DNA of 64,000 nt, taken from Thermoplasmatota archaeon (GTDB lineage Archaea; Thermoplasmatota; Thermoplasmata; RBG-16-68-12; JAGMCJ01). The stretch is taken from assembly GCA_022848865.1 (NCBI GenBank), contig JAJISE010000001.1, positions 49,036 through 113,035 on the forward strand. The letters are read 5' to 3'. The position numbers were made by a program, and so were the translations under genes. Shown piece by piece: positions 28,778-54,428 of the stretch. How positions within the stretch are numbered: position 1 is the stretch's first letter; every line of letters starts with the position of its first letter. The notes under the pieces were generated by a model. It was not told the DNA's origin, did no database searches, and worked only from the letters and a program-made list of their open reading frames with translations.

Positions 28778-28956
28778 GTCACTTCGTTAATATCTCTGGG
28801 ACGTATATCAAACTTCCCGGCCTTGTGTGTTCGAGAGAGCCGACAACGATGGGTTTCCGGTGCCAAGAAAAGGTATTTGTAGGGACTCGGCAATACCTTG
28901 TCTCCCTTCTCGCATCCGGCGCGGAAGGGCGTTTTCGCATTCTCAGGGGGAGAGGC

Positions 28957-31573: not shown

Positions 31574-33085
31574 CTAGAACTCTAGCATCGTGTACGCGCC
31601 GCTCTCGAGATTGACTATCGGAACGCGGCAGACAATGGGGTTCATGTTGTGCATCCTCTGAAATGCCGTCTGTGACTGCCAGGTCGAGCAGTTGATCATC
31701 ACAACTCCCTTGTATTCCTCGATACCCGCCCAGTGGACGTGTCCCGTGGCAAAGACGTCAGGAACCCTGGCGATCGCCAGATAGTCCTCTCTCTCGGGGG
31801 CAATCGGGGTCTTCCCGCCGTATATGGGTGCGAGGTGACGCCGGATGAGCATCTCCCTCATCCCCGTCAGCGGTTTCTCGTACGAGACCTCGGGGAAAGC
31901 TCCGACGAAGTCATCGAGGCTCCTGCCGTGATAGGACAGAATCTCGACGCCATGAAGGCTGAGCAGGCACGGGTTTCCGACGAAGGTCACGTTGTCCTGA
32001 AAGACCTTCCTCACATCGGAGGGAAGAGCTGGCTGAGGCTCTGCGGGTCGGACGGCGTCGTGGTTCCCGGGTTGGAGGATTATCTCCACGTGATCGGGAA
32101 GCTGGGAGAGAAGGCCCGCAAGGCTCTCGTACTGCCCGTATATGTCATCGATCTCAAGGTCCTTGTCCTGGCCGGGATAGATCCCTATTCCGTCGACCGC
32201 GTCGCCCGGAACGACGACATACTTCACCCTTCTCGCCAGGTCGTCCGAGTTCCCAAGCCACTCCACGAGCTTCGCCCAGCGGTCGGGAAGGAATGTCTTG
32301 CTTCCCACATGGATGTCACCGAGGAAGGCCACGGACACGGGAACGTCGGCCTCGTTGAACCGCTTGCCTGGCGGCACGTCGGGCCTGAACACCCTCTTAG
32401 CGATCATCAAATCGTTCTTGCCTGTCTTTCCCATGATCCCGAGGACCTCGTCCGCGATGAAGTTATCCGAGTGCATCTCGGGGGGTATCAGAACCGACAC
32501 GGTGTCTGTCTCGTCCTCCACATCAAGGATGAGATGGCCCGAGCGGGTCCTGTTCACCTTGCGAACCATGCAGACAAAACTGATCTCCCTCATCAGCCGC
32601 TTTGCCTTCGAGATGTCCTCGCATCCCCTCAGCTCTCTCCTTTGCTTGAGCATCTCAGAGAGCTGGTGAAACCTGTTCTTGAAATGGCAGTGGAAGTCAT
32701 CTATCGAGCCCTGGCATGTCGATTCTCCCGTGATGTCCTTCAGAATGCGGATGTCGCTCTCACAGTCCTTGGCGGAAGATCCCACGTCGCGGGTCCTCGG
32801 TCTCGGAGGTTTCGATGCCGCCATTGGTTTCCTCTTTACCTTGTCTGCCGCAAGGATGGCGATGCCCTCCGCCTTGGCGATCTCTTCCATCGTAATCATG
32901 AAGGGCTTGTCCTGGAAACGAGTGAACAGGTCCTCGACATAGGATATCGGGTCCTCCTTCTCCAGGATATAGCTGGCAGCCTCGGGCTCAAGCAGGGTTC
33001 CCTTGTCGAGAAGTAGGCTCAAAAGCTTGCTCCGCATTCCACGGCTTATTGTCCTTACAAATCTAAATATGTTTCCACCGCGCAA
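31574..33085 (-). CDS. DNA polymerase II (PolD) small subunit DP1, 3'-5' exonuclease.
   Basis: Calcineurin/Mre11-like phosphoesterase motifs are present (VVPGDAVDGIGIYPGQ, GNHD, GHVHWAG), with an N-terminal PolD DP1-type region. Confidence 0.8.
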   Translation of the reverse strand: MRGGNIFRFVRTISRGMRSKLLSLLLDKGTLLEPEAASYILEKEDPISYVEDLFTRFQDKPFMITMEEIAKAEGIAILAADKVKRKPMAASKPPRPRTRDVGSSAKDCESDIRILKDITGESTCQGSIDDFHCHFKNRFHQLSEMLKQRRELRGCEDISKAKRLMREISFVCMVRKVNRTRSGHLILDVEDETDTVSVLIPPEMHSDNFIADEVLGIMGKTGKNDLMIAKRVFRPDVPPGKRFNEADVPVSVAFLGDIHVGSKTFLPDRWAKLVEWLGNSDDLARRVKYVVVPGDAVDGIGIYPGQDKDLEIDDIYGQYESLAGLLSQLPDHVEIILQPGNHDAVRPAEPQPALPSDVRKVFQDNVTFVGNPCLLSLHGVEILSYHGRSLDDFVGAFPEVSYEKPLTGMREMLIRRHLAPIYGGKTPIAPEREDYLAIARVPDVFATGHVHWAGIEEYKGVVMINCSTWQSQTAFQRMHNMNPIVCRVPIVNLESGAYTMLEF

Positions 33086-33492: not shown

Positions 33493-34253
33493 TCTCGATA
33501 AGTTGTCCCCCGCTATCCCTGCTTCCCCTTGAGGAAGCCCTGCGGATGGTGGAAGGGAAGTTCGACGGTTGGGAGATAGTGGCGGAGGGGAGGCACCTCC
33601 TCCCTGCGATCGAGGGCGATCTGGAAGAGATCGTATCCAGCCATCCCATGAAGTTCACGGTGCACGCCCCCCTCAGCGACATCAATATAGGCACCCTCAA
33701 CCCGGGGATCAAGAGGGAAGCGATCAATCAGCTGGTCGAGGTGGTGGAGATAGCGCATCGTCTTGGGATAGGGAGAGTGACGATGCATCCGGGATTCCTC
33801 TCGCCCATAACGTTCGGCAGGAGGAGGCTCGCCGAAGAGGCGGTCCGGGACTCGGTGGAGGAGATTGAGCGAAGAACGGATGGGACGGATGTGGTCAAGT
33901 GCATCGAGAACATGCCGCGTCTGTTCATCACACTCTTCTCGGAGCCCGAAGAGATGCTCGAACTCATCGAAGGAACTTCTTTCGAGCTCTGCCTCGACGT
34001 GGGGCATGCGAATACGACGGGCAATCTGTCTGCATTCCTTGAGCACTGGGAGAGGTTCGGTACCGTACACGTGCATGACAATATAGGGAAGTTCGACGAG
34101 CACCTTCCGCTGGGCGAGGGAGAGATAGACTTCGAGATGGTGTTCGGTATGCTGCGGGACTATAGAGGCGACTTCGTGGTGGAGTCGAGAAGCGTGGAGG
34201 AGGGTTTGGCGGGAAAGCGGTTCATCGAGTCATTGCAGATAGCCGCACCTTAG
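33489..34253 (+). CDS. Sugar phosphate isomerase/epimerase (xylose isomerase-like TIM barrel, AP endonuclease family 2 fold).
   Basis: Metal-ligand blocks are present (TMHPGF, CIENMP, CLDVGHAN, VHVHDN). Confidence 0.6.
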   Translation: MISISCPPLSLLPLEEALRMVEGKFDGWEIVAEGRHLLPAIEGDLEEIVSSHPMKFTVHAPLSDINIGTLNPGIKREAINQLVEVVEIAHRLGIGRVTMHPGFLSPITFGRRRLAEEAVRDSVEEIERRTDGTDVVKCIENMPRLFITLFSEPEEMLELIEGTSFELCLDVGHANTTGNLSAFLEHWERFGTVHVHDNIGKFDEHLPLGEGEIDFEMVFGMLRDYRGDFVVESRSVEEGLAGKRFIESLQIAAP

Positions 34254-35648
34254 GCACTGGAACCTCCCCTCGAAGTATCTGGCCTCTTGGAAGCCGCACT
34301 GGGAGCACACAAAGCCGAACTGCTGCGGTCCCGCTGTCTGCAGCGGCACTTCCCCTGCCATCTGGACGCCTCCGGCGGGAACTGGAACAGGCTTCTGTAA
34401 GCGGAAGAACGCCCCCAGAGCGTCCAGGGCCTTCTTGGAGTAGTAGATGAAGAAGAGAAAGCCAGCGATTAGGAAGACGATGAGCACCAAGCCAAGGAAC
34501 ACCTCCATGCCCGTGTTGCCGCTTGCAATTGCGACGAGCACGGAAGCAGCGAAGTAGTCCACGACGAAGTGAAAGAGAATGGAGGCCCAGATGCCCTTCT
34601 TCACATACACATACCCGAGGATGAGGCCTGCGAACAGGGTTGGAGCCAGCTTGTATACATCCCAGGAAGGGATGTGGGCGATTCCGAATATCGTCGCAGA
34701 GGCGATTATCAAACCCCAGGTGTATGACTTCATCCTCCCGCTCCCGCCAAAGAGCTCCTTGAGAAGCGGTCTGCCACGGACACCGGATCCCAGCGCGATT
34801 AGGAACAAGGGGACGCCAAGGAAGACCAGGCGGGTGGCAATCTCCTCGTATACGGACGCGTTCAGCAGCTCGAACAGCAGGAACCATTGTGGATAGCTTT
34901 GAGTCGAGGGTGAGGCCGTCTCCACTCCGAGCATCCACAAGAAGAGGAGGTATGCTGTACTGAAGAATAGGTAGGTGCAAAACAGCTGAGCGATCATCGC
35001 CCAGGAGGTGTTAGTGGACAGCCTGAGCCTCCCGTCCCTCACCGAGGAGACCATGTCAGAAATGAGCTTCTTGCCGTCAAGACCAACGGCCAGCGATATG
35101 GAAACGACGACGGCGACCACCAAGCCGAGATAGTAGAGGAGGAACCAGCCGGGATCGCTGAAACTGAATAGGCCGATGGGGATCGGAGCCAACACGTAGA
35201 TTACGACACCGCACTCTGTGCACTCCTGACCCGTTATGCCGGGAATGACCTCGCTCATCCCCCAGAACAAGTATCCAGAGATGACGACAAGAAGAACGAG
35301 GAACACGATCATGACCCCAATCCAGACGAAGGACCCGAGGATGTGAATCGTCCTCATCATGGACTCGTGAATGGACACTTCCCGATACGACGGATAGTAG
35401 GTGGGCGCTCGATCGCAGACGGGGCAGTAGTTCCCTTGGAAGGGAGTCCCGCAGTAGATGCACTGCATGACGGCAGGAGCCATCTGAGGCGCCCCTGCCC
35501 CGCAATATGGACAGAAACTCCCGGAGAAGGACTGACCGCAGAAGAGACACGCAATGGGTCCTCGGGGCGCAGGTTCCGCGCCGACGTCAAGACCGCACCG
35601 AGGACAGAACCGCAGTGGGATTCCTGCTCCACATCTGGGACAGTTCAC
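34230..35648 (-). CDS. Membrane protein with four N-terminal zinc ribbons fused to a CPBP (CAAX protease/Abi) intramembrane metalloprotease domain.
   Basis: Four CPxCG-type pairs occur (CPRCG..CPRCG, CLFCG..CPYCG, CIYCG..CPVCD). CPBP motifs are EEIATRLVF (EExxxR), FGIAHIPSW (FxxxH) and HFVVDYF (HxxxD/N). Confidence 0.65.
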   Translation of the reverse strand: MNCPRCGAGIPLRFCPRCGLDVGAEPAPRGPIACLFCGQSFSGSFCPYCGAGAPQMAPAVMQCIYCGTPFQGNYCPVCDRAPTYYPSYREVSIHESMMRTIHILGSFVWIGVMIVFLVLLVVISGYLFWGMSEVIPGITGQECTECGVVIYVLAPIPIGLFSFSDPGWFLLYYLGLVVAVVVSISLAVGLDGKKLISDMVSSVRDGRLRLSTNTSWAMIAQLFCTYLFFSTAYLLFLWMLGVETASPSTQSYPQWFLLFELLNASVYEEIATRLVFLGVPLFLIALGSGVRGRPLLKELFGGSGRMKSYTWGLIIASATIFGIAHIPSWDVYKLAPTLFAGLILGYVYVKKGIWASILFHFVVDYFAASVLVAIASGNTGMEVFLGLVLIVFLIAGFLFFIYYSKKALDALGAFFRLQKPVPVPAGGVQMAGEVPLQTAGPQQFGFVCSQCGFQEARYFEGRFQCLRCGYLQ

Positions 35649-37864: not shown

Positions 37865-38395
37865 ATGCACGTGAGTGACCTCGGGTTGATACAGGTCTAC
37901 ACTGGGACGGGGAAGGGCAAGACAACTGCGGCCCTCGGTCTGGCGATGAGGGCATGCGGCCACGGTCTGAGAGCCTATATGGTCCAGTTCATGAAGGGAA
38001 GGATAGATTACGGGGAGCTGAAGGTCGCCGAGAAGATTGAGGGTCTTACGATTGAGCAGTTCGGGAGACCGGATTTCGTGGACAAGGACAATCCCGCCGA
38101 GGAGGACATCGAGCTGGCAAGAGAGGCGCTCGCGAAATCAAAGGAGGTCGTTCTGAGCGGGGAATACGATCTGGTCATCCTCGACGAGATCAACGTCGCC
38201 ATAGAATGGAACCTGATCGACGTCGGCGAGGTCGTGGATCTCCTAGAGATGAAACCGAAGGATGTCGAGGTCGTTCTTACGGGAAGATACGCCAGGCAGG
38301 AAATAATCGACCTAGCGGATCTGGTCAGCGAGGTAAAGGAGGTCAAGCATCCATTCACGCGGGGAATGCATTCGCGGGTCGGAGTGGACTACTAG
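37865..38395 (+). CDS. cobO: Cob(I)yrinic acid a,c-diamide adenosyltransferase (CobA/CobO/BtuR).
   Basis: The P-loop GTGKGKTTAALG, the QFMKG block and the size of about 176 aa identify the family. Confidence 0.85.
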   Translation: MHVSDLGLIQVYTGTGKGKTTAALGLAMRACGHGLRAYMVQFMKGRIDYGELKVAEKIEGLTIEQFGRPDFVDKDNPAEEDIELAREALAKSKEVVLSGEYDLVILDEINVAIEWNLIDVGEVVDLLEMKPKDVEVVLTGRYARQEIIDLADLVSEVKEVKHPFTRGMHSRVGVDY

Positions 38396-39543
38396 CCTTC
38401 CACCGTCTTGGAGAACATCAAGAGTTGGATCTCTGGCGTTGTGAACCTAGACCTCTTCTTGAGCTCCTCGGCATTCCCTTCCCGCATTAGGGTCAGGAAA
38501 AGCGGATTCCCCTTTGTCAGGAGGTATATCCGCCGCATCGCCTCGTCCTCGATTCTCGGGTTTCCCAACACGAGCTTGGAGCCCTCCTGGCTGAGGCCCT
38601 TGAGATGCATCTCATCGACGACTCCGCCCTCGGTCATCTTCCTGTCGTAGAAGCGGCAGTAGGCGGGGGTCGCCTCCTGCGCGACCACGATCATCTTCGC
38701 CTTCTCGATCCCGGATAGCAGATGCGCGAGGGCATTGAATGCATCCACGAGATCCTCGCCCACGATGCTGTAGTTGTCAAAGACGAGTAGGGAACCGGAG
38801 TCGCGGAGTTCTTCTCCGAGCGCGGTCATCGTGCCATCGAAGTTTCCCTCTTCGAGCAGCTTTCTCACGCTGCTGCCACGTTTCCCAGTCGCGAAGTGCA
38901 CGAGCGGCTTGAGCACGTCCGTGGCATCGTCGTCCTCGGAAAGGTCCTTCCAGAACACTCGCCAGCCCTCGGCCCCATCCAGCAAGGTCCTGACGAGGGA
39001 TGACTTCCCATAACCGACGTGTCCGTACAAGGCCAGAACGGGCGCCTTGCCCGCCAACCACTCCCGCATGTGAAGGAGCTCCGCCTGTCTGTTCACGAGC
39101 TCCCTCTTCCCAGTCGCGGGCTTGGGCGGCATCTGGATAGTGTCAAGGACATCCTCTGGACCCAGGTTCTTGAGGATCTCAGTGTAACTCATCTCGTAGA
39201 GCCCGGACGCCTCCGAGACCGGGAGCTCGGTCTCGCCCGAGCTGGAGCGGACCGTGATCTTTCTCCTTCCAATCTGCTTCCTGATGTTGGCGGCCCGCCT
39301 GTATCCCTTCTCGGTCAGGAAGTACATCTTGAGACGCCTTCCGGCCCCATGGACGCGCTCCCTCCTCTCCTCGATCGCCCCCTCCTCCATGAGCGTCTTC
39401 ATGGATCGCGGGATGTGGCTCCTTCGGATGCCAACGGAGGTCGCGATCCCGGCCTGCGTGATGTCGGGCGGGAGGTCGTTCTGGACATTCCTGTAGTCAA
39501 AAAGGTGAACCAGCATCCTGTCGTTGACAGTTAGACTCGCCAC
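38392..39543 (-). CDS. Winged-helix plus AAA ATPase-domain regulator (archaeal ATPase family).
   Basis: An N-terminal wHTH is followed by Walker A (ALYGHVGYGKSSLV) and Walker B-like (LLVFDNY) motifs. It is divergent from the giant pilin-like gene. Confidence 0.55.
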   Translation of the reverse strand: MASLTVNDRMLVHLFDYRNVQNDLPPDITQAGIATSVGIRRSHIPRSMKTLMEEGAIEERRERVHGAGRRLKMYFLTEKGYRRAANIRKQIGRRKITVRSSSGETELPVSEASGLYEMSYTEILKNLGPEDVLDTIQMPPKPATGKRELVNRQAELLHMREWLAGKAPVLALYGHVGYGKSSLVRTLLDGAEGWRVFWKDLSEDDDATDVLKPLVHFATGKRGSSVRKLLEEGNFDGTMTALGEELRDSGSLLVFDNYSIVGEDLVDAFNALAHLLSGIEKAKMIVVAQEATPAYCRFYDRKMTEGGVVDEMHLKGLSQEGSKLVLGNPRIEDEAMRRIYLLTKGNPLFLTLMREGNAEELKKRSRFTTPEIQLLMFSKTVEG

Positions 39544-39559
39544 GCGATATCATCAGGCA

Positions 39560-39618
39560 GTGGTTATTTAACCATGACGGTAGCGCACTCGCGTGGTGCA
39601 AACCATGGTAACTACCAC
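39560..39618. promoter_or_regulatory. Operator-like palindrome (GTGGTGCAAACCATGGTAACTACCAC at 39594-39618) plus a related upstream half-site (GTGGTTATTTAACCATG at 39560-39576), located in the divergent regulator / giant-gene intergenic region.
   Basis: Dyad symmetry centred on CCATGG with GTGGT...ACCAC flanks. It lies immediately upstream of the TATA box at 39625. Confidence 0.35.
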
Positions 39619-39624
39619 ACAAGG

Positions 39625-39634
39625 CTTATATAAA
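39625..39634 (+). promoter_or_regulatory. TATA box (cttatataaa) for the 1284-aa gene. A strong SD (GGAGGACGAAGG) precedes the ATG at 39672.
   Basis: The AT-rich element lies about 42 nt upstream of the ATG, with the SD sequence in between. Confidence 0.4.
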
Positions 39635-39671
39635 CTCAGGCTCTTCTTTCAGAACCACAGGAGGACGAAGG

Positions 39672-42600
39672 ATGTCACTCTATAGGAAGCGTTTCTCCAG
39701 AGACAATAATGGCGTGGCCGAGGTCGTTGGAACGATATTGATATTGCTCATCACAGTGGTCATCTTCTCGACCATATTCATATGGGTGTACTCTATCCCA
39801 ACGCCAGAGGCTTCAACGAAGCTCCAGATGGAAGGAGCACTGGACCCGATTTATGATACTGGTGTGTGGGACGGGGCGATAATAAACATCACCCACCAGG
39901 GCGGGGAGAATCTGTATGGCTGGAGAACGCAGGTTTACATTCGAGTGAACAATGAGTTCGAGATACTTGAGACCCAGGGAACGATCTCGTACGGACCCAA
40001 CTCTGGGGACCCATACGGACTGAGAGAGGATGGTGACTGGTTCATCGGCGAGGTCTGGAGCATTCTGAACCACACGATTCAGCCTGATGACAGGGTCGAG
40101 GTCGGTGTGGTCGAATCCATAAAGGGCGAGGTGATCTGGAGCTCTTTGCTCTTGGGAGCCGCGGGCGAGCATCCCCCGCTCTTCGTCCAGAAGTGGTATG
40201 ACGGCAATCTGGATACGATTGCGAGGGAGGATCTGAGAGGGAACGAGTCGTTCGCGATCTACGTCCAGATAGTGGACAATGACGGGGATTTCGATTCGGG
40301 CAACCCTGTTTACGCCAACGTGACCGTGCTCTACGCTGACTACGGCGCCTTCAAGATGTACGACAACGGCTCCATGGGAGATGCTCTGGCAGATGATGGC
40401 ATCTGGACTGCGAACTATACGGCGTTCGAAGCGGACGAATCCATGGACGGCTCGCTGGTGATTATCACGGCCGAGGATGATGCTGGTCACAACACGACCG
40501 CCAGGCTAATCCTCAAGCTTCGAGAGACGACGACGATCTACATCCCAACGCCACCGCCGGATTACAATATCACCACACCGAGGTTTGGCCCTGAACTGCT
40601 TCCTGGAAGCGGCCTCCAGCACTATCAGATATTCAACGAGACAGAGTGGGATAAGTTGAGATGGGTAGGCAACGCGTCACGGACGTTCGTGAAGGGTGAG
40701 AGGATCGTCATAGTCATCGCCAGCCATTTCCTTCCTGACACGAATCTGGACAACAAGTTTTGGCTGTTCAAGGCAGAGTCTGGTCTTGGACCACAGCCCG
40801 TAGTCTATGGCGGGGGATCGCTGGGTCCGAATTCTATTCCGTCCTCAACAGAGGCGTTCGAACTCGTTGACTACGTGGGCAAGTTCTACGTCTGGGAGTG
40901 CAGGTGGAACACCTCGAGCGAGGGTCACGGCTTCAGCGACGGACTGCTGGATTACGGCCACTACTCTCTAAGGATAAAACTGAGATCCAGCTACTATCCT
41001 CCACCCGACAATCTCTTCGAGGTCATGGACTTCATCACGGTCACAGATGAGGACGGCAATTTCCCGGACTATCCGATGGTCCAGACCTTCCTTGATGCCA
41101 ACCACGAGCAACCCTCTGATACGTTCAACTACACAGACATTATGTACGTCAAGGTTGTCGTCCAGGATACTGACGGCTCGTTCGAGTTCGGGAACGTCAA
41201 GATACAGGACTTCGGGGCTGGTATCCAAATCTGGGCCAAGCCAGGCAATCCTCCCGTTAGTGCCGCCTCGGTGAACAACTCCGTGAGTTATAAGTTCAAC
41301 ATAGACCTGACCAAGCCGAATTTCGATCCATGGCTCTTCGGAGAGAATGCCTACACGTTGAGGGTTCTGTATCTCAAGGACATCAATGAGGAATACAAGG
41401 TCTCGCTCAGTCGTCTTGTGACGATCAGGGGACCCCGATGGTACTTGGACATTGCCCATTCAATCGAGGGTTACGACCACCCGACCCATGACGACAGGGT
41501 TTACGCTGTGTTCCTCGAGAACCTTGTCTTCAGATGGGAAGATTACTGGATTGAGTCCTACAACGGTCCTCCAAACCAGAGGGACCCACCGTGGGGAGGC
41601 GGTGCTTTCCTCTCCATCGTCTTCGGAGACCTCGATGATGATACCGACTTGGATGTTGTCACGGGTCTCGAAGTGGGCAGATTGTTCATGTACAGGAACC
41701 AAGGCGGGAATGGTCACTTCTGGCAACAAAGAGAAGTCGACAACCTGGGGATGCCAGTCACAGCTGTCGATGTCGGCCATGTCGACAAGGACGGTCTCCT
41801 CGATATCGTCGCTGGAACAGAGGACGGTCATATCTGGTGGTATGCGAGCGACAACCAATGGACGCCGACACTCATCGTGGATACGGGTTTGGAGATTCAC
41901 GAGTTGGTGATGGCAGACATGGATGATGACGATGACGATGACTTGGTCGTCGCGACTGGGAACGATCTTCGTGTCTATGAGAACAGCGATGGCGTCTTCG
42001 GGACGATCACGACACTGGAATACTTCGCAGAGGCGGACATTGGAGGCAATGGAACCGTCGTGCCATCACCACTTGGCTTCGAGAAAACCAAAATGTCCGA
42101 TGACGACTATGAGTCCATAACTGAAGTAAGCGGAATCGCGTATAACGTCAGCACATACACTGCACAGGGAGAGGTCGATGCCCAGTACGAAGACCCAAAG
42201 AGCGGGGACTACACCAACACAAAGACCGAGGATGGGTCCTACGAGGTCCTCAGAGAGAAGAATTCATACCCACTCAAACTCAATGGGAAGTATCGTTACC
42301 TCATTCGCAATTGGACTGGCAATCTAGCAACGCATGGGCACGCCTTCCTGTTTGGAGATGTGCCGAATGGGGATCTCATTAAGCTCTACATCAACAGCTA
42401 CATAAGCAACGGAACAACCAACGAGCCATTCAATATGGGCTGGTCCAACGATTGGACAGCGAACCCGACTTACATCTCAGATATCTCAAGGACGACAATA
42501 GGGACAGATGAATTCAATCTGAAGGCTGCAGGGTTCACTGGCGGACCGCTCATCATCTGGATATGGGATGATGATCACAGCGAGAAAGACATCACTTCCC

Positions 42601-43526
42601 TTGATGAGGCACTGAGTTGGCTATCCATCGACTACATGGGTGTGAAGGTCTTTACGGCAAACGGAACGACGAGCACTCTGGACCACATCTGGAGAACCGA
42701 TTCCATCCAGGCCAATGGGCACGCATACAAGTTCTTCTTAGAGGCCTATCACGATGACAACGCTGAGAATGACCACTTCACGTTCCAGTACTCCCAGAAC
42801 CAAGGAGGTCCCTGGACGGACATGGTGACCATAGTACGCACATCGGATCCTAACGACTATACTGGGGCCACGCTTCCCACAACGGTCGCAGGAAACGCAT
42901 ACATAAAAGTTATCGACACCGACGGCACGAACGGTAGACTCAACAACGACACTGTGTATGTGGACCATATGTTCATCAGGAGATACTATGTCTCGACAAC
43001 CCCACTCTACTCCATCGACCTCGGTAGCACCGTGAATAGTATCGCCGTCGGTGATGTGGACGGTGATGGTGATAATGACGTTGCTGCGGCGACTTCCAGT
43101 GGGAACATCTATGTGAGGTACAATGATGGCCTGGGTGACCTGGGTTTGGTGGACGTGCTTGCGGCAACTGGCTCAGTTCTACAAGTGGATCTTGCCTATA
43201 TTGATGGCGACGACGCCCTCGATGTCGTCGCGGGAACGGACGACAACAAAGTCTACTGGTTCGAGAATGCCCTTCCACAAACCTCATGGGATAGGGAAAA
43301 GATTGCGGACACCGATGGTGACGTCACGGCCCTGAGGGCCGGAGATGTCAATGGTGATTACTGGGACGATATCGTGATAGGAACAGATACAGGGAAGATC
43401 GTCTGGTACAAGAATGAGCGTCCTGGCTGGAAGACAGAGATCGTGGATAGCCGCAATTCACCCATCTACGATCTGGACATCGGCGACGTTGACCGAGGAG
43501 TGACGATCGAGCTAGAGAGGGACTAG
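39672..43526 (+). CDS. Giant (1284 aa) surface protein. It has an archaeal type IV pilin-like (class III) N-terminal signal/anchor and multiple FG-GAP/VCBS-like beta-propeller repeats.
   Basis: The N-terminus RDNNGVAEVVGTILILLITVVIFSTIF matches the archaeal pilin N-terminal domain consensus. Repeated D-x-D-x-DG-x-x-D-hydrophobic-hydrophobic-x-G blocks are present (DLDDDTDLDVVTG, DKDGLLDIVAGTEDGHIWWY, DDDDDDDLVVATG, DVDGDGDNDVAAATSSGNIYV, DGDDALDVVAGTDDNKVYWF, NGDYWDDIVIGTDTGKIVWY). Confidence 0.75.
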   Translation: MSLYRKRFSRDNNGVAEVVGTILILLITVVIFSTIFIWVYSIPTPEASTKLQMEGALDPIYDTGVWDGAIINITHQGGENLYGWRTQVYIRVNNEFEILETQGTISYGPNSGDPYGLREDGDWFIGEVWSILNHTIQPDDRVEVGVVESIKGEVIWSSLLLGAAGEHPPLFVQKWYDGNLDTIAREDLRGNESFAIYVQIVDNDGDFDSGNPVYANVTVLYADYGAFKMYDNGSMGDALADDGIWTANYTAFEADESMDGSLVIITAEDDAGHNTTARLILKLRETTTIYIPTPPPDYNITTPRFGPELLPGSGLQHYQIFNETEWDKLRWVGNASRTFVKGERIVIVIASHFLPDTNLDNKFWLFKAESGLGPQPVVYGGGSLGPNSIPSSTEAFELVDYVGKFYVWECRWNTSSEGHGFSDGLLDYGHYSLRIKLRSSYYPPPDNLFEVMDFITVTDEDGNFPDYPMVQTFLDANHEQPSDTFNYTDIMYVKVVVQDTDGSFEFGNVKIQDFGAGIQIWAKPGNPPVSAASVNNSVSYKFNIDLTKPNFDPWLFGENAYTLRVLYLKDINEEYKVSLSRLVTIRGPRWYLDIAHSIEGYDHPTHDDRVYAVFLENLVFRWEDYWIESYNGPPNQRDPPWGGGAFLSIVFGDLDDDTDLDVVTGLEVGRLFMYRNQGGNGHFWQQREVDNLGMPVTAVDVGHVDKDGLLDIVAGTEDGHIWWYASDNQWTPTLIVDTGLEIHELVMADMDDDDDDDLVVATGNDLRVYENSDGVFGTITTLEYFAEADIGGNGTVVPSPLGFEKTKMSDDDYESITEVSGIAYNVSTYTAQGEVDAQYEDPKSGDYTNTKTEDGSYEVLREKNSYPLKLNGKYRYLIRNWTGNLATHGHAFLFGDVPNGDLIKLYINSYISNGTTNEPFNMGWSNDWTANPTYISDISRTTIGTDEFNLKAAGFTGGPLIIWIWDDDHSEKDITSLDEALSWLSIDYMGVKVFTANGTTSTLDHIWRTDSIQANGHAYKFFLEAYHDDNAENDHFTFQYSQNQGGPWTDMVTIVRTSDPNDYTGATLPTTVAGNAYIKVIDTDGTNGRLNNDTVYVDHMFIRRYYVSTTPLYSIDLGSTVNSIAVGDVDGDGDNDVAAATSSGNIYVRYNDGLGDLGLVDVLAATGSVLQVDLAYIDGDDALDVVAGTDDNKVYWFENALPQTSWDREKIADTDGDVTALRAGDVNGDYWDDIVIGTDTGKIVWYKNERPGWKTEIVDSRNSPIYDLDIGDVDRGVTIELERD

Positions 43527-44135
43527 TCGCTCCAGGTGCTTGAGGACGCCATCCGCCCTTTCCACCTCAATCAGGGAAAGGACCCTTGACCATTTGCCCG
43601 CCATCTTCGACAGTCTCAGAGCGATATATCGCTCCCTTTCCTGTTCAAGCCGCTCAAAACCATTATGCCTGTTGACGTACGCGTCGAACTCCAGCACGAA
43701 GTCCCCCGGTGACTGGGCCTTGAACTTCTTCCCAACGAGTGCGCGAGAATCCCTGGTCTGCTTCATCACGTCGACGACGGAGACAAAATTGCAGTACGCC
43801 TCGGTGTACAGGTGTTCATTCATGTCCACGGCCATGCACGGGACCCGCAGGCGTCTCGCAACCGCGATACACTCGGAGTAGCAGGGTGGGGGCTTCCTCA
43901 CGTCTCCGAACTTCTGCAATCCCTTCATGTAGGCCTCCTCGTGAGCGCTTGACGGCTCTGCCTCTTGATTCCCCAGGGTGCCCAGCGTCCTGAGCTCCTC
44001 CTTTGAGATGCAGATGCCCAGTGCGTCCGGTTTGGTCTCTTCAATCGCCCGCTCGACCTCCTCCGCCTCGCTGACGAGGCCCCTGATCACGGGTAACACG
44101 AAAATCCTGGAGCCGCCCCTCCCAATGGAATCCAT
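43512..44135 (-). CDS. TraB/GumN-family protein (tentative).
   Basis: The N-terminal block SRIFVLPVIRGLVSEAEEVERAIEETKPDALGICISKEEL resembles the TraB-family GTAHVS...PD-V-VEL region. Confidence 0.4.
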   Translation of the reverse strand: MDSIGRGGSRIFVLPVIRGLVSEAEEVERAIEETKPDALGICISKEELRTLGTLGNQEAEPSSAHEEAYMKGLQKFGDVRKPPPCYSECIAVARRLRVPCMAVDMNEHLYTEAYCNFVSVVDVMKQTRDSRALVGKKFKAQSPGDFVLEFDAYVNRHNGFERLEQERERYIALRLSKMAGKWSRVLSLIEVERADGVLKHLERLVPL

Positions 44136-44139
44136 CGAA

Positions 44140-45081
44140 TCACTTCTTCCTTTCCAAAATCAGGTCCAGCATCCCTTCCCTGTCCTTGACCTTCTTGAGC
44201 TCCTTCTCGAGGATGATCGGCGTCCCTTCTATGTTCCGCTTCACAGTGAGCTGCCTGACGAAAATCACAGAGTCCTTCTCGACAACGCTGGAGATGTTCG
44301 CTACAATCTTCGCCTTGGTCGAGAGATCCGATTGTCTCCTTTCCAGACCCGTGAGCAGAATCACCTTCCTGTCCCTTGTCACGGCATCGAACGGGCATCT
44401 GATGGTCGGCACGATGCTGTACCCAAGCATGGACAGATGACCGAAGACATCCCTCTCGAACTGGTCGAGCTGATTCCACGACGTCATGATCTCATCGGCA
44501 TCCGGTTTCAGGTGGAAGGGGTCCACGGCCTGGACGATAGGCTCCCCCAGGAACTCCTCGAGCCTCAAGGCGACATCTACGGTGGCGCCCATCCCGTCCT
44601 CGTACATCTGGATCGTCCGCCTGGACACGCCCGCGATCTCCGCCAGTGCTCCCAAGGAGATGCTCTTCTTCTCCCTTGCACGGCGTATGATCGTCCCGTC
44701 GAGCTTCACGTACAGGCCGCCCGGTGCGGAGAACATGAACGGTGGCACGCCCTCGACGAAGATGTCCGTGAAGGTTCCAAGAGAAAGGATCGGGATCCCG
44801 AACCGGGAGTATATCGCCCCGTCCTCCAGTTTTCCAGCCCCGCTCTTCCCCGCCAGTATGAGAGGCGTCCCCTCGAGGCAAGATGCAATCATCTTCAGCT
44901 CCTGCGAGCGCTTCCTGCCCAGCGAATCGATGTTCAGAAGCACTTTCGTGACCAGCAGCGTGTCGTCCCGCCTGGCGACGAAATCGAAACTAATCCTCCT
45001 TGTGTCCAGTCTCTGGGACAGATAGAATCCAGTCTTCGCTAGGATTTCCCGAGATGTATCGATTATCTGCTGGCGGTTCAC
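44140..45081 (-). CDS. Putative HTH-type transcriptional regulator (archaeal approximately 315-aa family with a central cro/C1-type HTH).
   Basis: The central XRE HTH is SLGALAEIAGVSRRTIQMYEDG. The size and architecture match the archaeal putative HTH-type regulator family. Confidence 0.6.
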   Translation of the reverse strand: MNRQQIIDTSREILAKTGFYLSQRLDTRRISFDFVARRDDTLLVTKVLLNIDSLGRKRSQELKMIASCLEGTPLILAGKSGAGKLEDGAIYSRFGIPILSLGTFTDIFVEGVPPFMFSAPGGLYVKLDGTIIRRAREKKSISLGALAEIAGVSRRTIQMYEDGMGATVDVALRLEEFLGEPIVQAVDPFHLKPDADEIMTSWNQLDQFERDVFGHLSMLGYSIVPTIRCPFDAVTRDRKVILLTGLERRQSDLSTKAKIVANISSVVEKDSVIFVRQLTVKRNIEGTPIILEKELKKVKDREGMLDLILERKK

Positions 45082-49203: not shown

Positions 49204-50214
49204 TTGAGCGTCAAAGTGGCGATCAATGGCTATGGGACGATAGGTAAGAGGATAGCCGACGCGGTAGCTTCGCAGGATGATATGGAAGTGATCGGTGTAA
49301 CGAAGACCAGACCGACCTACGAGGCGAAGATGGCAATCTTGCGGGGATACCCGTTCTACGCAGCATCCGAGGAATCTGTAGGACGCTTCAAGGACAAGGG
49401 AATTGAGGTCCAGGGGACCCTTGACGACCTGCTCGAACAGGCTGACATAGTCGTGGACGGGACCCCCAAGAACATGGGATACAAGGAGACCTACGAGAAG
49501 GCGGGCGTGAAGGCCATATGGCAGGGAGGCGAGAAGCACGAGTTGACCGGGCTTTCGTTCAACGCCCAGGCGAACTACGACGAGGCGCTCGGCGCCGACT
49601 ACGTCAGAGTCGTTTCATGCAACACGACCGGACTCATAAGGACGCTGTACCCCCTTCACAAGGAGTTCGGAGTGGAGTATGTCATGGCCGTGATGATCAG
49701 GCGGGGAGCAGATCCCTGGGATACGAAGAGGGGCCCCATAAATGCGGTGGAGCCCGTGCTCAAGGTTCCGTCACACCACGGTCCCGATGTGCAGACGGTC
49801 ATGCCCTACCTGAACATCCAGACGACCGCGGTGAAGGTCCCGACGACCATAATGCATCTCCATTCCCTCATGGTCAGGCTGAAGCGGGAGGTCAGCAGAG
49901 ATGATGTCCTCAAAGTGTGGGAGAACTCCCCGAGGATCCTCTTCGTTGAGGGGGAGGAGGGAATCAAATCCACGGCCCAGATCATGGAGATGGCCAAGGA
50001 CATGTGCAGGAACAGGGCGGACCTGTACGAGATAGCCGTGTGGCGGGACGGCACCCATGTGGTGGGCGATTCGCTCTACTACTACCAGGCGATCCATCAG
50101 GAGTCCGATGTCGTGCCCGAGAACGTGGACGCGATCAGGGCCATGATGGAAATCGAGAAGGACAACATGAAGAGCATGAAGAAGACGGACCTCGCATTGG
50201 GCATAGAGTGCTAG
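49204..50214 (+). CDS. gap: Glyceraldehyde-3-phosphate dehydrogenase, archaeal type.
   Basis: [19 protein letters not shown] is the archaeal GAPDH N-terminus and the active-site SCNTTGL is present. The start is TTG at 49204, giving [11 protein letters not shown], 5 nt after GGGGG. The track ORF start at 49060 lies inside the repeat array and is spurious. Confidence 0.9.
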
Positions 50215-50367
50215 ATTCGATGAGCCAGATGGTGAGGTTCAAAACCTTACATTGTCAGAAACTTGACAGAAGCCCCGCAGGGAAGCGCCGCGAAAATGGG
50301 GGTAGCGAGAACGGAGCGCCACCGATTTTGAGGGTAGAGGCGAAGCCGAGCACCGCGAGTTTCGAGG

Positions 50368-51438: not shown

Positions 51439-51679
51439 AGAAATCGGATAGCTCCCTTTCTATCCTTTTCCAAACAGGAATACTACAGTCAATTGTCACG
51501 TGCACGGTGTTCTCACGGACTTCATAAGTCCCTGATAGAAGACCAGTTGGATGAGAGAAATTCCCCCTCCGAGCGTTGCCAGACAGTGACCATCCATTCT
51601 CTTCGGCTCGCTGGTTCACGATTCTGAATAGGTCTTCTGGAGTGTATTTCAAGTCAATATCGTATGTTCTTCTCGCCAT
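51431..51679 (-). CDS. Hypothetical 82-aa protein that overlaps the start of the AlbA_2 gene by 8 nt (same operon).
   Basis: Compact ORF with ATG/stop overlap coupling. I recognise no family. Confidence 0.35.
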   Translation of the reverse strand: MARRTYDIDLKYTPEDLFRIVNQRAEENGWSLSGNARRGNFSHPTGLLSGTYEVRENTVHVTIDCSIPVWKRIERELSDFFG

Positions 51680-53968: not shown

Positions 53969-54428
53969 TCCGCCGTTTCCCCCGAATGGCTGAGTGTTGA
54001 ATCCGTTGCGCCGATAAAAGTGTTTCCCAGAAGGCATTTCAGAATCACTTCTCGGGAGCCATTTCAGAGGGAACAGTTTGCCATCGTAACGTCGCTGTTC
54101 ATATCGAAGGAAATCACTTCTCGTCTGAAGGTAGGCTCTTGGAGGCTTTCTCGTGGATTCTGAGCCACTTTCACTTTGGGATGAGCGGAAGCTGTCAAAA
54201 GAGAACCACTGCCAGAGAGCAGTCTGTCTGCCTCTGTGTGCATTTCCTGACTCTCCTTCGCTAGAGTGCATTGGGACGGTCCTCTCAAACCGTTTCCCAT
54301 CCCGAGAGGGATATGCAAATAGGATGATATGATTATTTTCTGAGCATATGTGATGGAAAGTGTCTAATAGCAGGTATGATATAAAGCTCAGCAAAGCATA
54401 TAGTCTGATAATCCATGCTTAGCATATC

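What the first reader, a model, noticed from the sequence alone, without database searches (positions are those of the whole stretch)
38392..43526. 1284-aa FG-GAP repeat protein with an archaeal pilin-type N-terminus, paired with a divergent wHTH-AAA regulator
The giant ORF begins with RDNNGVAEVVGTILILLITVVIFSTIF. This is the signature of archaeal type IV pilin-like (class III signal peptide) proteins processed by PibD/FlaK-type prepilin peptidases. The remaining roughly 1250 aa are full of FG-GAP/VCBS-type calcium-binding propeller repeats, as found in integrin alpha chains and bacterial adhesins. A pilin-like anchor on a megaprotein adhesin is unusual. The only plausible regulator is the divergently transcribed wHTH plus Walker-ATPase protein. 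The 128-bp intergenic region has a TATA box, a strong SD and a CCATGG-centred palindrome.
Basis: partly seen in the sequence, partly recalled or inferred. Interest (0 to 1): 0.6.

Follow-up and report, generated by a model that had tools for sequence, protein, structure and literature searches.

The report
Giant archaeal pilin-anchored propeller surface protein
An uncultured Thermoplasmata archaeon encodes a 1284-residue surface protein with a pilin-type N-terminal helix, a stalk of four Ig-like domains and an integrin-like calcium-binding propeller head, driven by a promoter whose conserved palindrome is shared with related pilin-like genes; it is an interesting archaeal version of the known "modular pilin" idea rather than a new kind of system.

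Summary
Pfam passes threshold for Pilin_N (residues 13-93) and FG-GAP_3. FG-GAP repeats cover only residues ~591-793 and 1110-1284. AlphaFold2 gives a helix (13-40), four Ig-like domains, then an approximately seven-bladed propeller split by a ~315-residue β-sandwich insert.

The identical protein is already in NCBI as "type IV pilin" (MCJ2555574.1). It belongs to a Thermoplasmata-MAG family. The N-terminal module (residues 1-288) heads 409 cluster representatives of up to 2618 aa, so the architecture is common in this lineage.

A ~545-aa paralog sharing only that module lies beside T2SSE/T2SSF genes in five loci of one soil sub-lineage. No such genes were seen in the ~84 kb examined here. The window protein has N, not a charged residue, at −2 of the putative cleavage site, so processing is unproven.

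The CCATGG centre is not conserved. The adjacent palindrome GGTAACTACC (39607-39616) sits at fixed spacing before the TATA box in 61 distinct family promoters. The divergent wHTH-P-loop gene is its best, unproven, candidate binder.

Verdict: new variant of a known kind; interest about 0.45.

The parts
38392..39543 (-). 383-aa wHTH + P-loop (AAA_16/ATPase_2-like) protein, the candidate regulator ('reg'), GTG start
   Evidence: ORF. Pfam hits are sub-threshold: HTH_Crp_2/TrmB at residues 10-63 and AAA_16/AAA_22/ATPase_2 at 150-349. SlyA matches in PDB at E 0.0014, residues 15-109. In 49 distinct orthologs the 'TQAGIA..RSHxPR' helix, Walker A G.GK[ST], Walker B hhhhD and a 'TKGNPL' motif are conserved. 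Orthologs lie divergent-upstream of the family gene in most loci.
39564..39571 (-). Putative TATA box of reg (TTAAATAA on the minus strand), 21 nt from the GTG, which implies a leaderless mRNA
   Evidence: Sequence. The block GTTATTTAACCATGACGGT is conserved in 8 close relatives. Promoter function is inferred.
39603..39608 (.).
   Evidence: It reads AACATGG or ATCATGG in L004, L006, L007, L008, L010, L011 and L061.
39607..39616 (.). Conserved palindromic upstream element GGTAACTACC (GGTA-N2-TACC), 9 nt before the TATA box
   Evidence: The consensus TGGTAAcTACCaCgaA...tTTATATAtCGTCgg holds over 61 distinct promoters, with variable flanks. Of 67 perfect GGTANNTACC sites in 1.32 Mb, 61 lie within 300 nt upstream of a family gene. 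The strict palindrome+TATA pattern gave 50 of 50 hits upstream of family genes.
39626..39634 (+). TATA box TTATATAAA of the giant gene, preceded by a BRE-like ACACAAGGC
   Evidence: Invariant in close relatives and TTATATA/TTAAATA in distant ones.
39660..39664 (+). Shine-Dalgarno GGAGG, 7 nt before the ATG
   Evidence: CAGGAGGAC is conserved in close relatives and GGGAGG in distant ones.
39672..39713 (+). Leader peptide, residues 1-14 (MSLYRKRFSRDNNG), ending at the putative class III cleavage site G14|V15
   Evidence: Position -1 is G or A in 118 of 118 family N-termini. Position -2 is N here and is charged in only 31 of 118. Cleavage itself is not shown.
39714..39800 (+). Hydrophobic H-domain / alpha-1 helix, residues 15-43 (VAEVVGTILILLITVVIFSTIFIWVYSIP)
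   Evidence: It is the only hydrophobic segment in the protein. AF2 predicts a helix at 13-40. Pilin_N begins at residue 13. G20, T21, L23, L25, T28, F32, W38, V39, P43 and P45 are invariant in 47 sequences.
39801..40526 (+). Two beta-sandwich domains (residues 44-285). Together with the helix they form the shared 'pilin module'.
   Evidence: AF2. Homology to the 544-aa short paralog covers residues 5-288 only (35% identity, E 3e-47). The module heads 409 cluster representatives. choice_anch_X motif at 228-254.
40527..40583 (+). Pro-rich linker, residues 286-304
   Evidence: pLDDT below 50 at 285-304. Homology to the short forms ends here.
40584..41441 (+). Two further Ig-like beta-sandwich domains (residues 305-590), forming the stalk
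   Evidence: AF2. Foldseek finds only generic Ig-stalk and S-layer matches such as PrgB and SbsB, with low TM scores. No Pfam match.
41442..42050 (+). FG-GAP propeller, N-terminal part (residues 591-793): closing strands plus blades 1-3 with acidic Ca-loop motifs
   Evidence: FG-GAP_3 best stretch at 704-760. AF2 pLDDT 89, four-stranded repeats. Profile hits to CRTAC1 and ITFG2. Motifs GDLDDDTDLD, VDKDGLLD and DMDDDDDDD are visible in the sequence.
42051..42998 (+). Beta-sandwich insert of about 315 residues (794-1109) between blades 3 and 4
   Evidence: AF2 DSSP. No Pfam match. Contains 6 of the 19 N-glycosylation sequons.
42999..43526 (+). FG-GAP propeller, C-terminal part (residues 1110-1284): blades 4-6, closing strand, conserved C-terminal tail ...DIGDVDRGVTIELERD, and stop codon
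   Evidence: FG-GAP at 1122-1148 and BBS7-propeller-like at 1178-1250. Integrin alpha-6 and alpha-V profile hits. AF2. C-terminus conserved.
43512..44135 (-). 207-aa conserved protein of unknown family ('p207'), convergent, overlapping the giant gene's 3' end by 15 bp
   Evidence: Orthologs lie immediately downstream in most loci at 38-77% identity. No match in Pfam, NCBIfam or PDB. Whether it belongs functionally is unknown.

Best explanation
The 1284-aa ORF encodes a giant modular, pilin-type surface glycoprotein of an uncultured Thermoplasmata archaeon.

Shown:
- A short basic leader is followed by a hydrophobic helix homologous to the archaeal type IV pilin N-terminus. It is the only membrane-compatible segment.
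- Everything after it looks extracellular. It is acidic, has one Cys, and is rich in N-glycosylation sequons.
- It folds as four Ig-like domains carrying an FG-GAP beta-propeller of about seven blades with acidic calcium-loop motifs. The propeller is split by a ~315-residue beta-sandwich insert.
- The helix plus the first two domains (residues 1-288) form a conserved module shared with ~545-aa paralogs. Homology stops at a Pro-rich linker. The layout is therefore pilin module, linker, cargo.

Inferred:
- The protein is inserted through Sec.
- It is probably cleaved at G14|V15 by a prepilin-type peptidase.
- Its pilin module is handled by a type IV filament (TFF) machine encoded elsewhere. The propeller head is then displayed about 20 nm from the membrane, either at a filament tip or in a short bindosome-like assembly, for calcium-dependent binding of a ligand, surface or cell.
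- Transcription starts from a strong BRE/TATA promoter carrying the family-specific palindrome GGTA-N2-TACC. The divergently encoded wHTH-P-loop NTPase is the most likely protein to bind it and to co-regulate the giant gene with its short paralogs.
For: Domains and fold:
- Pilin_N and FG-GAP_3 pass Pfam gathering thresholds.
- AF2 models: pLDDT 89.3 and pTM 0.80 for residues 600-1284; pLDDT 79 for residues 1-640 with a helix at 13-40.
- Profile hits to CRTAC1, ITFG2 and integrin alpha. Weak hits to the helices of solved archaeal pilins 9myg and 8fj5.

Extracellular character:
- One hydrophobic segment, 19 sequons (1.48 per 100 aa against 0-0.6 in cytoplasmic neighbours), and 205 D+E against 83 K+R.

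Helix conservation:
- The H-domain is almost invariant across proteins only ~30% identical overall. That is more than a plain membrane anchor needs. In Haloferax a conserved H-domain is required for pilus assembly (PMC4371748).

Modularity:
- Homology to short forms ends at the linker.
- The module always sits at the N-terminus of 409 cluster representatives, 100-2618 aa long.
- Five of six sampled distant members also carry split FG-GAP repeats.

TFF link:
- The short paralog passes TIGR02537.
- It lies next to T2SSE, two T2SSF genes and a KaiC-like ATPase in L054, L058, L066, L068 and L081. L054, L058 and L068 come from three genomes that also hold a giant ortholog.
- It is the only class-III-type ORF in the three of those loci scanned, L054, L058 and L068.
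- Remote pilin genes and split platform genes are normal in Thermoplasmatales (PMC12448462).

Regulation:
- The palindrome is conserved and specific, and is shared by the TFF-linked paralogs.
- reg adjacency holds whether a giant or a short form fills the slot.
- The reg wHTH and Walker motifs are nearly invariant.
- The two lineages that lost the right half-site (the L003/L017/L048 clade and L079) also lack reg nearby.
Against: - The charged -2 residue expected for archaeal prepilin peptidase substrates is absent here and in 74% of the family.
- No prepilin peptidase, T2SSE or T2SSF gene was found in the window or within 10 kb beyond it.
- The gene lies in a conserved housekeeping block (Cdc6/Orc1, PolD-DP1, EndA, TFB), not in a TFF locus.
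- TFF adjacency of the short paralog is seen only in one soil sub-lineage. It is absent in L062 and L089 despite at least 6 kb of upstream sequence.
- TIGR02537 scores below cutoff for the window protein (13.1 against 20).
- A ~135-kDa ectodomain is hard to fit anywhere in a filament except the tip.
- Foldseek gave no pilin among the top hits for the N-terminal half.
- The reg-palindrome link rests on adjacency and co-conservation only. Since the whole region is syntenic, adjacency is weak evidence.
- reg has at least one paralog in the genome.
Confidence: 0.5

Rival explanations
1. Plain membrane-anchored surface protein. The N-terminal helix, cleaved or not, simply stays in the membrane as a signal-anchor. 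The Ig stalk and propeller then act as a stand-alone adhesin or receptor, or as a component of the disordered exterior protein layer of S-layer-less Thermoplasmata, with no filament machinery involved.
For: - No TFF genes in about 84 kb around the gene.
- The -2 residue is non-canonical.
- The gene is conserved at the same slot in a housekeeping block in most of 79 species-representative loci.
- Strong consensus promoter and SD.
- Heavy sequon load.
- Foldseek similarity of the stalk to the S-layer proteins SbsB and EA1, although generic.
- The ~20-nm exterior protein layer of Thermoplasmatales has unknown composition (PMC12448462).
Against: - The helix is conserved residue by residue (E17, G20, T21, T28, and others) far beyond what hydrophobic anchoring needs.
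- The same module occurs on a paralog encoded beside T2SSE/T2SSF.
- A dedicated operator and regulator suggest conditional rather than constitutive coat expression.
- No family member has been shown in the cultured Thermoplasmatales where the layer was observed.
Confidence: 0.33
2. Nutrient-capture or enzymatic surface protein. As with the class III-signal sugar-binding proteins of the Sulfolobus bindosome, the pilin-type N-terminus localises a binding or catalytic module. The propeller plus insert would bind or cleave polymers such as polysaccharides rather than mediate adhesion.
For: - FG-GAP/VCBS propellers occur in enzymes. A secreted esterase (8w20) is among the best profile hits, E 6.5e-6.
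- The insert domain has no recognisable family.
- Three S. solfataricus and eight S. acidocaldarius FlaFind-positive proteins are substrate-binding proteins (PMC4371748).
- The window encodes other secreted PKD/NosD/PLC-type proteins.
Against: - No catalytic domain or motif was detected.
- No transporter or catabolic genes are linked.
- A four-domain stalk with a terminal propeller is typical of adhesins.
Confidence: 0.1
3. The reg-giant pairing is a relic of synteny. The wHTH-P-loop protein has a function unrelated to the giant gene, and the GGTA-N2-TACC element is bound by another factor.
For: - The whole 15-20 kb region is syntenic across the clade.
- reg has a paralog elsewhere, and its domain hits are sub-threshold.
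- Short paralogs far from any reg gene carry the same element.
- Another HTH regulator lies 600 bp downstream.
Against: - Neighbours such as CobA and GNAT vary while reg stays divergent-adjacent.
- Adjacency persists when a short form replaces the giant.
- Lineages lacking reg nearby have a degenerate element.
- The wHTH is nearly invariant, as is the DNA element.
Confidence: 0.3

Closest known systems
Bacterial modular type IV pilins (Streptococcus sanguinis PilB/PilC, ETEC CofB; Raynaud et al. 2021, PMC8179133)
   Same: An N-terminal pilin module is joined by a short linker to a bulky functional (adhesive) module. The carrier module is shared with smaller pilins. A tip location is considered likely.
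   Different: This N-terminus is of the archaeal Pilin_N type, not the bacterial IPR012902 type with N-methylation. The cargo is about 1000 residues (two more Ig domains plus a split propeller). The largest bacterial case in that census is 860 residues in total. The gene is not in a pilus locus, and incorporation into a filament is untested.
Archaeal non-pilin class III signal peptide proteins (Sulfolobus bindosome sugar-binding proteins; 'relatively large pilins' co-regulated with Haloferax PilB4/PilC4; PMC4371748)
   Same: A class III-type N-terminus is used to place a large functional ectodomain on the archaeal surface. The genes often lie far from the machinery.
   Different: The cargo is different (FG-GAP propeller on an Ig stalk). 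The -2 position is uncharged. The family is confined, as far as seen, to Thermoplasmata MAGs. It has a conserved dedicated promoter element.
PilY1/PilC tip adhesins of bacterial type IVa pili, and the PilY-like adhesins noted in archaeal TFF loci (bioRxiv 10.64898/2026.04.22.720090)
   Same: A large calcium-binding beta-propeller head is presented by a type IV filament system for adhesion.
   Different: PilY1 is not a pilin and docks on minor pilins, whereas here the propeller is fused to the pilin module. There is no Pfam match to the PilY1/Neisseria_PilC family. The propeller is of the FG-GAP/VCBS type.
Integrin alpha-chain, CRTAC1 and ITFG FG-GAP beta-propellers
   Same: FG-GAP repeats with acidic DxDxDG-type loops. 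A seven-blade propeller carries a domain inserted between blades, as with the integrin alpha I domain. It serves as an extracellular ligand-binding head on a stalk of beta-sandwich domains.
   Different: Similarity is at repeat level only (E 1e-7 to 1e-5). The insert is a ~315-residue beta-sandwich between blades 3 and 4, not a vWA domain between blades 2 and 3. The anchor is N-terminal rather than a C-terminal TM helix. No beta-subunit partner is known.
Archaeal activators acting just upstream of BRE/TATA at surface-filament promoters (EarA at the Methanococcus archaellum operon, ArnR in Sulfolobus; recalled from memory, not checked here), and N-terminal-DBD + STAND NTPase regulators such as AfsR/SARP-NB-ARC
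   Same: A short conserved element lies immediately upstream of BRE/TATA of a pilin or archaellin-type gene. A wHTH protein is the presumed activator. The DBD-plus-P-loop architecture suggests nucleotide-dependent switching.
   Different: The DNA motif differs (GGTA-N2-TACC). reg shows no significant sequence similarity to a named regulator family (best matches are sub-threshold MreA/Sta1/SlyA). Binding is untested.

Membership tests
Archaeal type IV pilin-like proteins (class III signal peptide; Pfam Pilin_N PF07790) | Significant match to the Pilin_N N-terminal domain model | tested here: met
   PF07790 at residues 13-93, E 6.9e-10, 40.1 bits against a cutoff of 25.2. TIGR02537 is below cutoff for this protein (13.1 against 20) but above it for the short paralog (24 against 20).
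Archaeal type IV pilin-like proteins (class III signal peptide; Pfam Pilin_N PF07790) | G/A/S at -1 directly preceding the hydrophobic H-domain, after a short charged leader | tested here: met
   G14 follows MSLYRKRFSRDNN. G or A occupies -1 in 118 of 118 family N-termini. The H-domain at 15-43 is the only hydrophobic segment, and AF2 predicts a helix at 13-40.
Archaeal type IV pilin-like proteins (class III signal peptide; Pfam Pilin_N PF07790) | Charged residue at -2 (stated as critical for archaeal prepilin peptidase recognition, PMC4371748) | tested here: not met
   The window protein has N13. Across the family -2 is S in 70, R in 13, K in 12, and charged in 31 of 118. An E or D usually sits at -3. 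The TFF-linked paralogs share the same ESG|VSE site.
Archaeal type IV pilin-like proteins (class III signal peptide; Pfam Pilin_N PF07790) | Cleavage by a PibD/ArlK/EppA-type prepilin peptidase | not testable with these tools
   FlaFind is not available and the original paper is not held. No A24 peptidase gene was seen in the sequence examined.
Archaeal type IV pilin-like proteins (class III signal peptide; Pfam Pilin_N PF07790) | Same genome encodes a TFF assembly ATPase and platform protein | tested here: inconclusive
   None in the window or within 10 kb beyond it. Three related genomes with giant orthologs do encode T2SSE plus two T2SSF genes next to a short paralog.
Archaeal type IV pilin-like proteins (class III signal peptide; Pfam Pilin_N PF07790) | Incorporation of the subunit into a helical filament | not testable with these tools
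FG-GAP / VCBS beta-propellers (integrin-alpha type) | FG-GAP repeat models above threshold | tested here: met
   FG-GAP_3 PF13517 scores 57.4 bits against 26.9, in 5 stretches. Profile hits in PDB: CRTAC1 at 1.2e-7, ITFG2 at 5e-6, integrin alpha-6 at 1.3e-5.
FG-GAP / VCBS beta-propellers (integrin-alpha type) | Closed seven-bladed propeller | tested here: inconclusive
FG-GAP / VCBS beta-propellers (integrin-alpha type) | Calcium-binding DxDxDG-type loops in the blades | tested here: met
   Acidic loops are visible at about 655, 705, 750, 1128, 1172, 1222 and 1268 (GDLDDDTDLD, VDKDGLLD, DMDDDDDDD, GDVDGDGDND, IDGDDALD, GDVNGDYWDD, GDVDRG). Several D and G positions are invariant in 44 sequences. 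Actual Ca2+ binding is not testable.
Modular pilins (sensu Raynaud et al. 2021) | Pilin module, short linker, then an extra module not specific to T4P biology | tested here: met
   The shared module is residues 1-288. The linker is at 285-304 with low pLDDT.
Modular pilins (sensu Raynaud et al. 2021) | Bacterial class III motif IPR012902 (N-terminal methylation site) | tested here: not met
   Only the archaeal Pilin_N model matches. This protein is therefore an archaeal analogue rather than a member of the set surveyed in PMC8179133.
PilY1/PilC tip adhesins | PilY1/Neisseria_PilC-type C-terminal propeller domain | tested here: not met
   No such family appears among the Pfam or NCBIfam hits at E up to 0.1.
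wHTH + AAA_16/STAND-type NTPase regulators (the 383-aa neighbour) | Pfam AAA_16/ATPase_2 and HTH models above threshold | tested here: not met
   AAA_16 scores 25.8 against 32.6, ATPase_2 24.6 against 33.2, and HTH_Crp_2 24.4 against 27.
wHTH + AAA_16/STAND-type NTPase regulators (the 383-aa neighbour) | Conserved Walker A/B and a conserved DNA-reading helix | tested here: met
   G.GK[ST], hhhhD, 'TKGNPL' and 'TQAGIA..RSHxPR' are conserved at 80% or more in 49 distinct orthologs. The SlyA-like wHTH matches at E 0.0014.
wHTH + AAA_16/STAND-type NTPase regulators (the 383-aa neighbour) | Sequence-specific binding to the promoter it controls | not testable with these tools
   Only indirect evidence exists: adjacency, and co-loss of reg and the palindrome's right half-site.

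The most novel reading that the evidence does not exclude
This family may be the unidentified building block of the ~20-nm 'exterior protein layer' that replaces the S-layer in Thermoplasmata. In this reading, giant integrin-like glycoproteins carry a pilin module and are assembled by a type IV filament machine into short bindosome-like arrays. Together they form a calcium-dependent, regulated cell coat or cell-cell adhesion layer. The whole regulon (giant forms plus short forms) would be switched by a dedicated wHTH-STAND NTPase through the GGTA-N2-TACC element.
Probability: 0.12. Interest if true: 0.75.

Novelty: new variant of a known kind. Interest (0 to 1): 0.45.

Why it matters
Modular pilins, in which a pilin carrier is fused to a functional head, have been surveyed systematically only in bacteria. 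This family shows the same design in archaea at a much larger scale: about 1000 residues of cargo with an integrin-like split propeller, spread over hundreds of sequence clusters in uncultured Thermoplasmata.

It gives concrete candidates for how wall-less, S-layer-less archaea attach to surfaces or to each other. It may also bear on what their uncharacterised exterior protein layer is made of.

The conserved palindrome just upstream of BRE/TATA, shared by giant and short family members, defines a small candidate regulon. With the adjacent candidate regulator, it can be tested directly by EMSA or DAP-seq and in metatranscriptomes.

None of this changes basic concepts. The gene is already auto-annotated as a type IV pilin.

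Tried and rejected
- Foldseek against PDB returned only generic multi-propeller matches (DDB1, SF3B130, Elp2; TM about 0.2) for the C-terminal half. For the N-terminal half it returned generic Ig-stalk matches (PrgB, SbsB, complement). Neither is informative beyond fold class.
- Domain-by-domain Pfam at E up to 5 found nothing for the four Ig-like domains, the insert or p207.
- A profile search with 23 diverse N-terminal modules through the word-indexed database gave only 7 hits, so the taxonomic range could not be widened.
- FlaFind could not be run and the Szabo 2007 paper is not held. I applied the criteria as restated in PMC4371748 instead.
- Extending 10 kb past each window edge found no TFF genes.
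- The 8-bp inverted repeat CCACGCGA/TCGCGTGG (39540-47 and 39589-96) is not conserved in relatives and was dropped.
- I rejected the idea that the L003 divergent neighbour is a reg ortholog. It is the ortholog of the signal-peptidase-like gene at window 30193-31335.
- The sigma-70 promoter scanner was not used because the organism is an archaeon.

Full report
**1. What is at the coordinates**

A GTG-initiated ORF lies at 38392-39543 (-) and encodes 383 aa. A 128-bp spacer separates them.

The surrounding genes show an archaeon with GC of about 0.56. They include TFB, a tRNA-splicing endonuclease, Cdc6/Orc1, the small subunit of PolD, CobA and a GNAT.

The identical protein is already in NCBI nr as MCJ2555574.1, 'type IV pilin [Candidatus Thermoplasmatota archaeon]', on a 119-kb MAG contig.

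**2. Domain content and fold**

Pfam places Pilin_N (PF07790) at residues 13-93, with 40.1 bits against a cutoff of 25.2. FG-GAP_3 (PF13517) scores 57.4 bits against 26.9, in five stretches. Weaker FG-GAP and BBS-propeller hits lie near the C-terminus. NCBIfam adds a short choice-of-anchor-X motif at 228-254.

Because the protein exceeds the 1200-residue limit, I modelled two overlapping halves with 44-47 homologs as the alignment.

- Residues 600-1284 gave a confident all-beta model (pLDDT 89.3, pTM 0.80).
- Residues 1-640 gave pLDDT 79. The model has a long helix at 13-40, four beta-sandwich domains (about 50-160, 170-280, 310-460 and 469-590), and a disordered Pro-rich linker at 285-304.

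From the DSSP strings I read the C-terminal half as follows:

- three four-stranded blades at 646-793;
- a ~315-residue beta-sandwich insert at 794-1109;
- three more blades at 1113-1248;
- a closing blade made from strands 594-631 plus 1253-1260.

That makes a seven-blade propeller with a large insert. I could not inspect the coordinates, so the blade count is an inference.

A profile of the family hits FG-GAP propellers of known structure: CRTAC1 at 1.2e-7, ITFG2 at 5e-6, integrin alpha-6 at 1.3e-5, and many alpha-V and alpha-IIb chains. It hits the helices of two solved archaeal pilins only weakly (9myg, 8fj5; E about 0.1). Foldseek returned only generic propeller and Ig-stalk matches. The Ig-like domains and the insert match no Pfam model.

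Roughly a third of the protein is propeller.

**3. Extracellular character**

- There is one hydrophobic segment, at residues 15-43.
- There are 19 N-X-S/T sequons, or 1.48 per 100 aa, against 0-0.6 in cytoplasmic neighbours.
- The protein has a single Cys.
- It has 205 acidic against 83 basic residues.
- Acidic loops of the DxDxDG type occur once per blade. Several of their D and G positions are invariant across 44 sequences.

**4. The N-terminus as a class III signal**

Across 118 distinct family N-termini the pattern is a charged leader, then G (108) or A (10), then (V/I)(S/A)E(V/I)(V/I)GT(I/L)L(I/V)L...T.

Position -2 is S in 70 cases. It is charged in only 31, and it is N in the window protein. 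An E or D usually sits at -3.

PMC4371748 restates the FlaFind criteria as G/A/S at -1 plus a charged -2 residue, which it calls critical for archaeal peptidases. One defining feature is therefore not met, and cleavage cannot be assumed.

Two observations argue that this is a lineage-specific variant of a real pilin signal rather than a chance anchor.

- The helix is conserved almost residue for residue in proteins only about 30% identical overall.
- The paralogs encoded next to filament machinery carry the same ESG|VSE site and pass TIGR02537.

**5. The family**

A word-indexed search found 54 full-length relatives at 27-82% identity, all Pilin_N plus FG-GAP and all from Thermoplasmata-type MAGs.

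An exhaustive phmmer search with residues 1-290 found 409 cluster representatives. The module always sits at the N-terminus, and protein lengths run from fragments to 2618 aa.

Five of six sampled distant members again combine Pilin_N with split FG-GAP repeats. The sixth carries CARDB and Big_5.

In 79 species-representative loci the complete genes fall into three size classes: 514-564 aa, about 940-1010 aa, and 1270-1390 aa.

The short form aligns with the giant only over residues 5-288 (35% identity, E 3e-47). The alignment stops exactly at the linker.

This is the modular-pilin layout described for bacteria in PMC8179133. That census used the bacterial signature only, and its largest case had 860 residues.

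**6. Link to filament machinery**

Neither the window nor 10 kb beyond each edge encodes a T2SSE ATPase, a T2SSF platform protein or an A24 peptidase.

In related soil Thermoplasmata, the short form sits divergent to a large CARDB/zinc-ribbon membrane protein. In five loci (L054, L058, L066, L068, L081) a T2SSE gene lies beyond it. Two T2SSF genes were confirmed in L058, L066 and L068. A KaiC-like ATPase lies downstream in L054, L058 and L068.

Three of those loci (L054, L058, L068) come from genomes that also carry a giant ortholog in the usual slot (L025, L049, L084). In those three loci the short form is the only class-III-type ORF.

The linkage is not universal. L062 and L089 have at least 6 kb of upstream sequence without TFF genes.

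Remote pilin genes and a split platform are documented for Cuniculiplasma (PMC12448462), so a pilin gene far from its machinery is not unusual in this class.

**7. Neighbourhood and the 'regulator'**

The gene order is conserved down to about 29% identity of the giant protein:

Cdc6/Orc1, signal-peptidase-like, PolD-DP1, Rce1-like, ..., reg, family gene, p207, PDDEXK-HTH, EndA, TFB.

Because the whole block is syntenic, adjacency alone is weak evidence. Three points add weight.

- Variable neighbours such as CobA and GNAT come and go while reg stays divergent-adjacent.
- In genomes where a short form occupies the slot, reg is still next to it.
- The reg wHTH ('TQAGIA..RSHxPR'), Walker A and B, and a 'TKGNPL' motif typical of AAA_16 regulators are conserved in 49 distinct orthologs.

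All Pfam and NCBIfam hits for reg are below threshold. The best structural-sequence hit is SlyA at E 0.0014.

reg has a full-length paralog about 7 kb upstream of the window, next to PKD surface-protein genes.

A second HTH protein, PRK04140-type, lies at 44140-45081. reg is therefore not the 'only' candidate regulator.

**8. The promoter**

TATA (39626-34) and GGAGG (39660-64) are invariant in close relatives. A second AT-rich box at 39564-71, read on the minus strand, sits 21 nt from the reg GTG, which suggests a leaderless reg transcript.

What is conserved is the overlapping palindrome GGTAACTACC at 39607-16.

- The consensus over 61 distinct promoters is TGGTAAcTACCaCgaA...tTTATATAtCGTCgg, with fixed spacing and variable flanks. 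The promoters include those of the TFF-linked short forms.
- In 1.32 Mb of window plus loci there are 67 perfect GGTANNTACC sites. Of these, 61 lie within 300 nt upstream of a family gene.
- A stricter palindrome-plus-TATA pattern hit 50 times, always upstream of a family gene.
- Apparent exceptions L020, L028 and L029 carry one-mismatch variants.
- Only the L003/L017/L048 clade and L079 have lost the right half-site, and these lack a nearby reg. That amounts to two or three independent events, so the correlation is suggestive rather than proven.

The position, directly upstream of a BRE-like (C)GAAC, is where archaeal activators are known to act. That statement rests on my own knowledge and was not checked here.

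**9. Interpretation**

The best-supported reading has three parts.

- The protein is a giant archaeal modular pilin-type surface glycoprotein.
- Its pilin module is probably recognised by a TFF system.
- Its integrin-like head mediates calcium-dependent binding.

The gene belongs to a small regulon marked by GGTA-N2-TACC, with the divergent wHTH-P-loop NTPase as the likeliest regulator.

The main rival is a plain membrane-anchored adhesin or coat protein that never enters a filament. That rival is favoured by the missing -2 charge, the housekeeping location and the lack of nearby machinery.

The ~20-nm exterior protein layer of S-layer-less Thermoplasmatales has unknown composition (PMC12448462). 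A stalk of four Ig domains plus a propeller would be of roughly that height, by my estimate. This is the most novel reading not excluded, but no member of the family has been shown in the cultured species.

**10. Verdict**

- The object is a new archaeal variant of a known design, already auto-annotated as a pilin.
- The added value here is fourfold: the resolved architecture, the demonstration of modularity, the paralog-TFF link, and the conserved promoter palindrome.

Noticed in passing
window 43512-44135 (-): A 207-aa protein with no Pfam, NCBIfam or PDB match. It is conserved immediately downstream of the family gene in most loci (38-77% identity) and overlaps its 3' end convergently by 15 bp. 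Its function is unknown.
   Followed up: partly
window 30193-31335 (-): A 380-aa membrane protein with a signal-peptidase-I-like 'VVESxSMQH' motif (TIGR02228 at 23 bits, below cutoff) and a long C-terminal extension. It is conserved between Cdc6/Orc1 and PolD-DP1. In the L003 clade it is the divergent neighbour of the giant gene, in place of reg.
   Followed up: partly
window 28205-30189: Cdc6/Orc1 (28825-30189 +) lies divergent to a TM + DUF7343/MarR-type protein (28205-28777 -), with PolD-DP1 at 31574-33085. This is probably the replication-origin neighbourhood. The origin repeats were not searched.
   Followed up: no
window 34230-35648 (-): An Rce1-like CAAX-type membrane protease carrying several N- and C-terminal zinc-ribbon motifs. 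It is conserved in the same block across the clade.
   Followed up: no
L087 3127-4359 (about 7 kb upstream of window position 1): A 410-aa full-length paralog of reg (25% identity, E 7e-32). It sits next to PKD surface-protein genes, a KaiC-like ATPase and a Beta_helix+DUF835 protein. This suggests a multi-copy family of wHTH-P-loop proteins associated with surface-protein genes.
   Followed up: partly
window 43-3692, 25146-27518, 52451-54394, 62141-64000: The window is rich in other large secreted or surface proteins: two PKD proteins, a NosD/TSP3 beta-helix protein, a Zn-phospholipase-C + Big_5 protein, and a Big_5 x4 + CarboxypepD_reg protein. None has a class III-type N-terminus.
   Followed up: partly
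window about 50000-57000: A low-GC stretch (0.47-0.52 against about 0.56) encodes a Schlafen/AlbA_2 protein, an N6/N4 DNA methylase and a DUF6996/DUF6997 protein. It is possibly an acquired restriction-modification or defence island.
   Followed up: partly
L058 4913-9511 and 13452-16250; L089 6724-9582: Membrane proteins of 930-1550 aa with CARDB domains and cytoplasmic double zinc ribbons are the constant divergent neighbour of the short pilin-family paralog, with or without TFF genes nearby. This is an uncharacterised partner module.
   Followed up: partly
L090 366-6413; L017 about 6925 and 9992: Tandem duplicated mid-size family genes (966 and 938 aa, Pilin_N + FG-GAP) occupy the syntenic slot in some genomes.
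   Followed up: no
family C-termini: There are two conserved C-terminal endings. One is ...DIGDVDRGVTIELER(D/E) in the window's clade. The other is ...LGDxxxSQYxGR, ending exactly in GR, in the other clade. The invariant terminal GR may be a sorting or docking signal.
   Followed up: no
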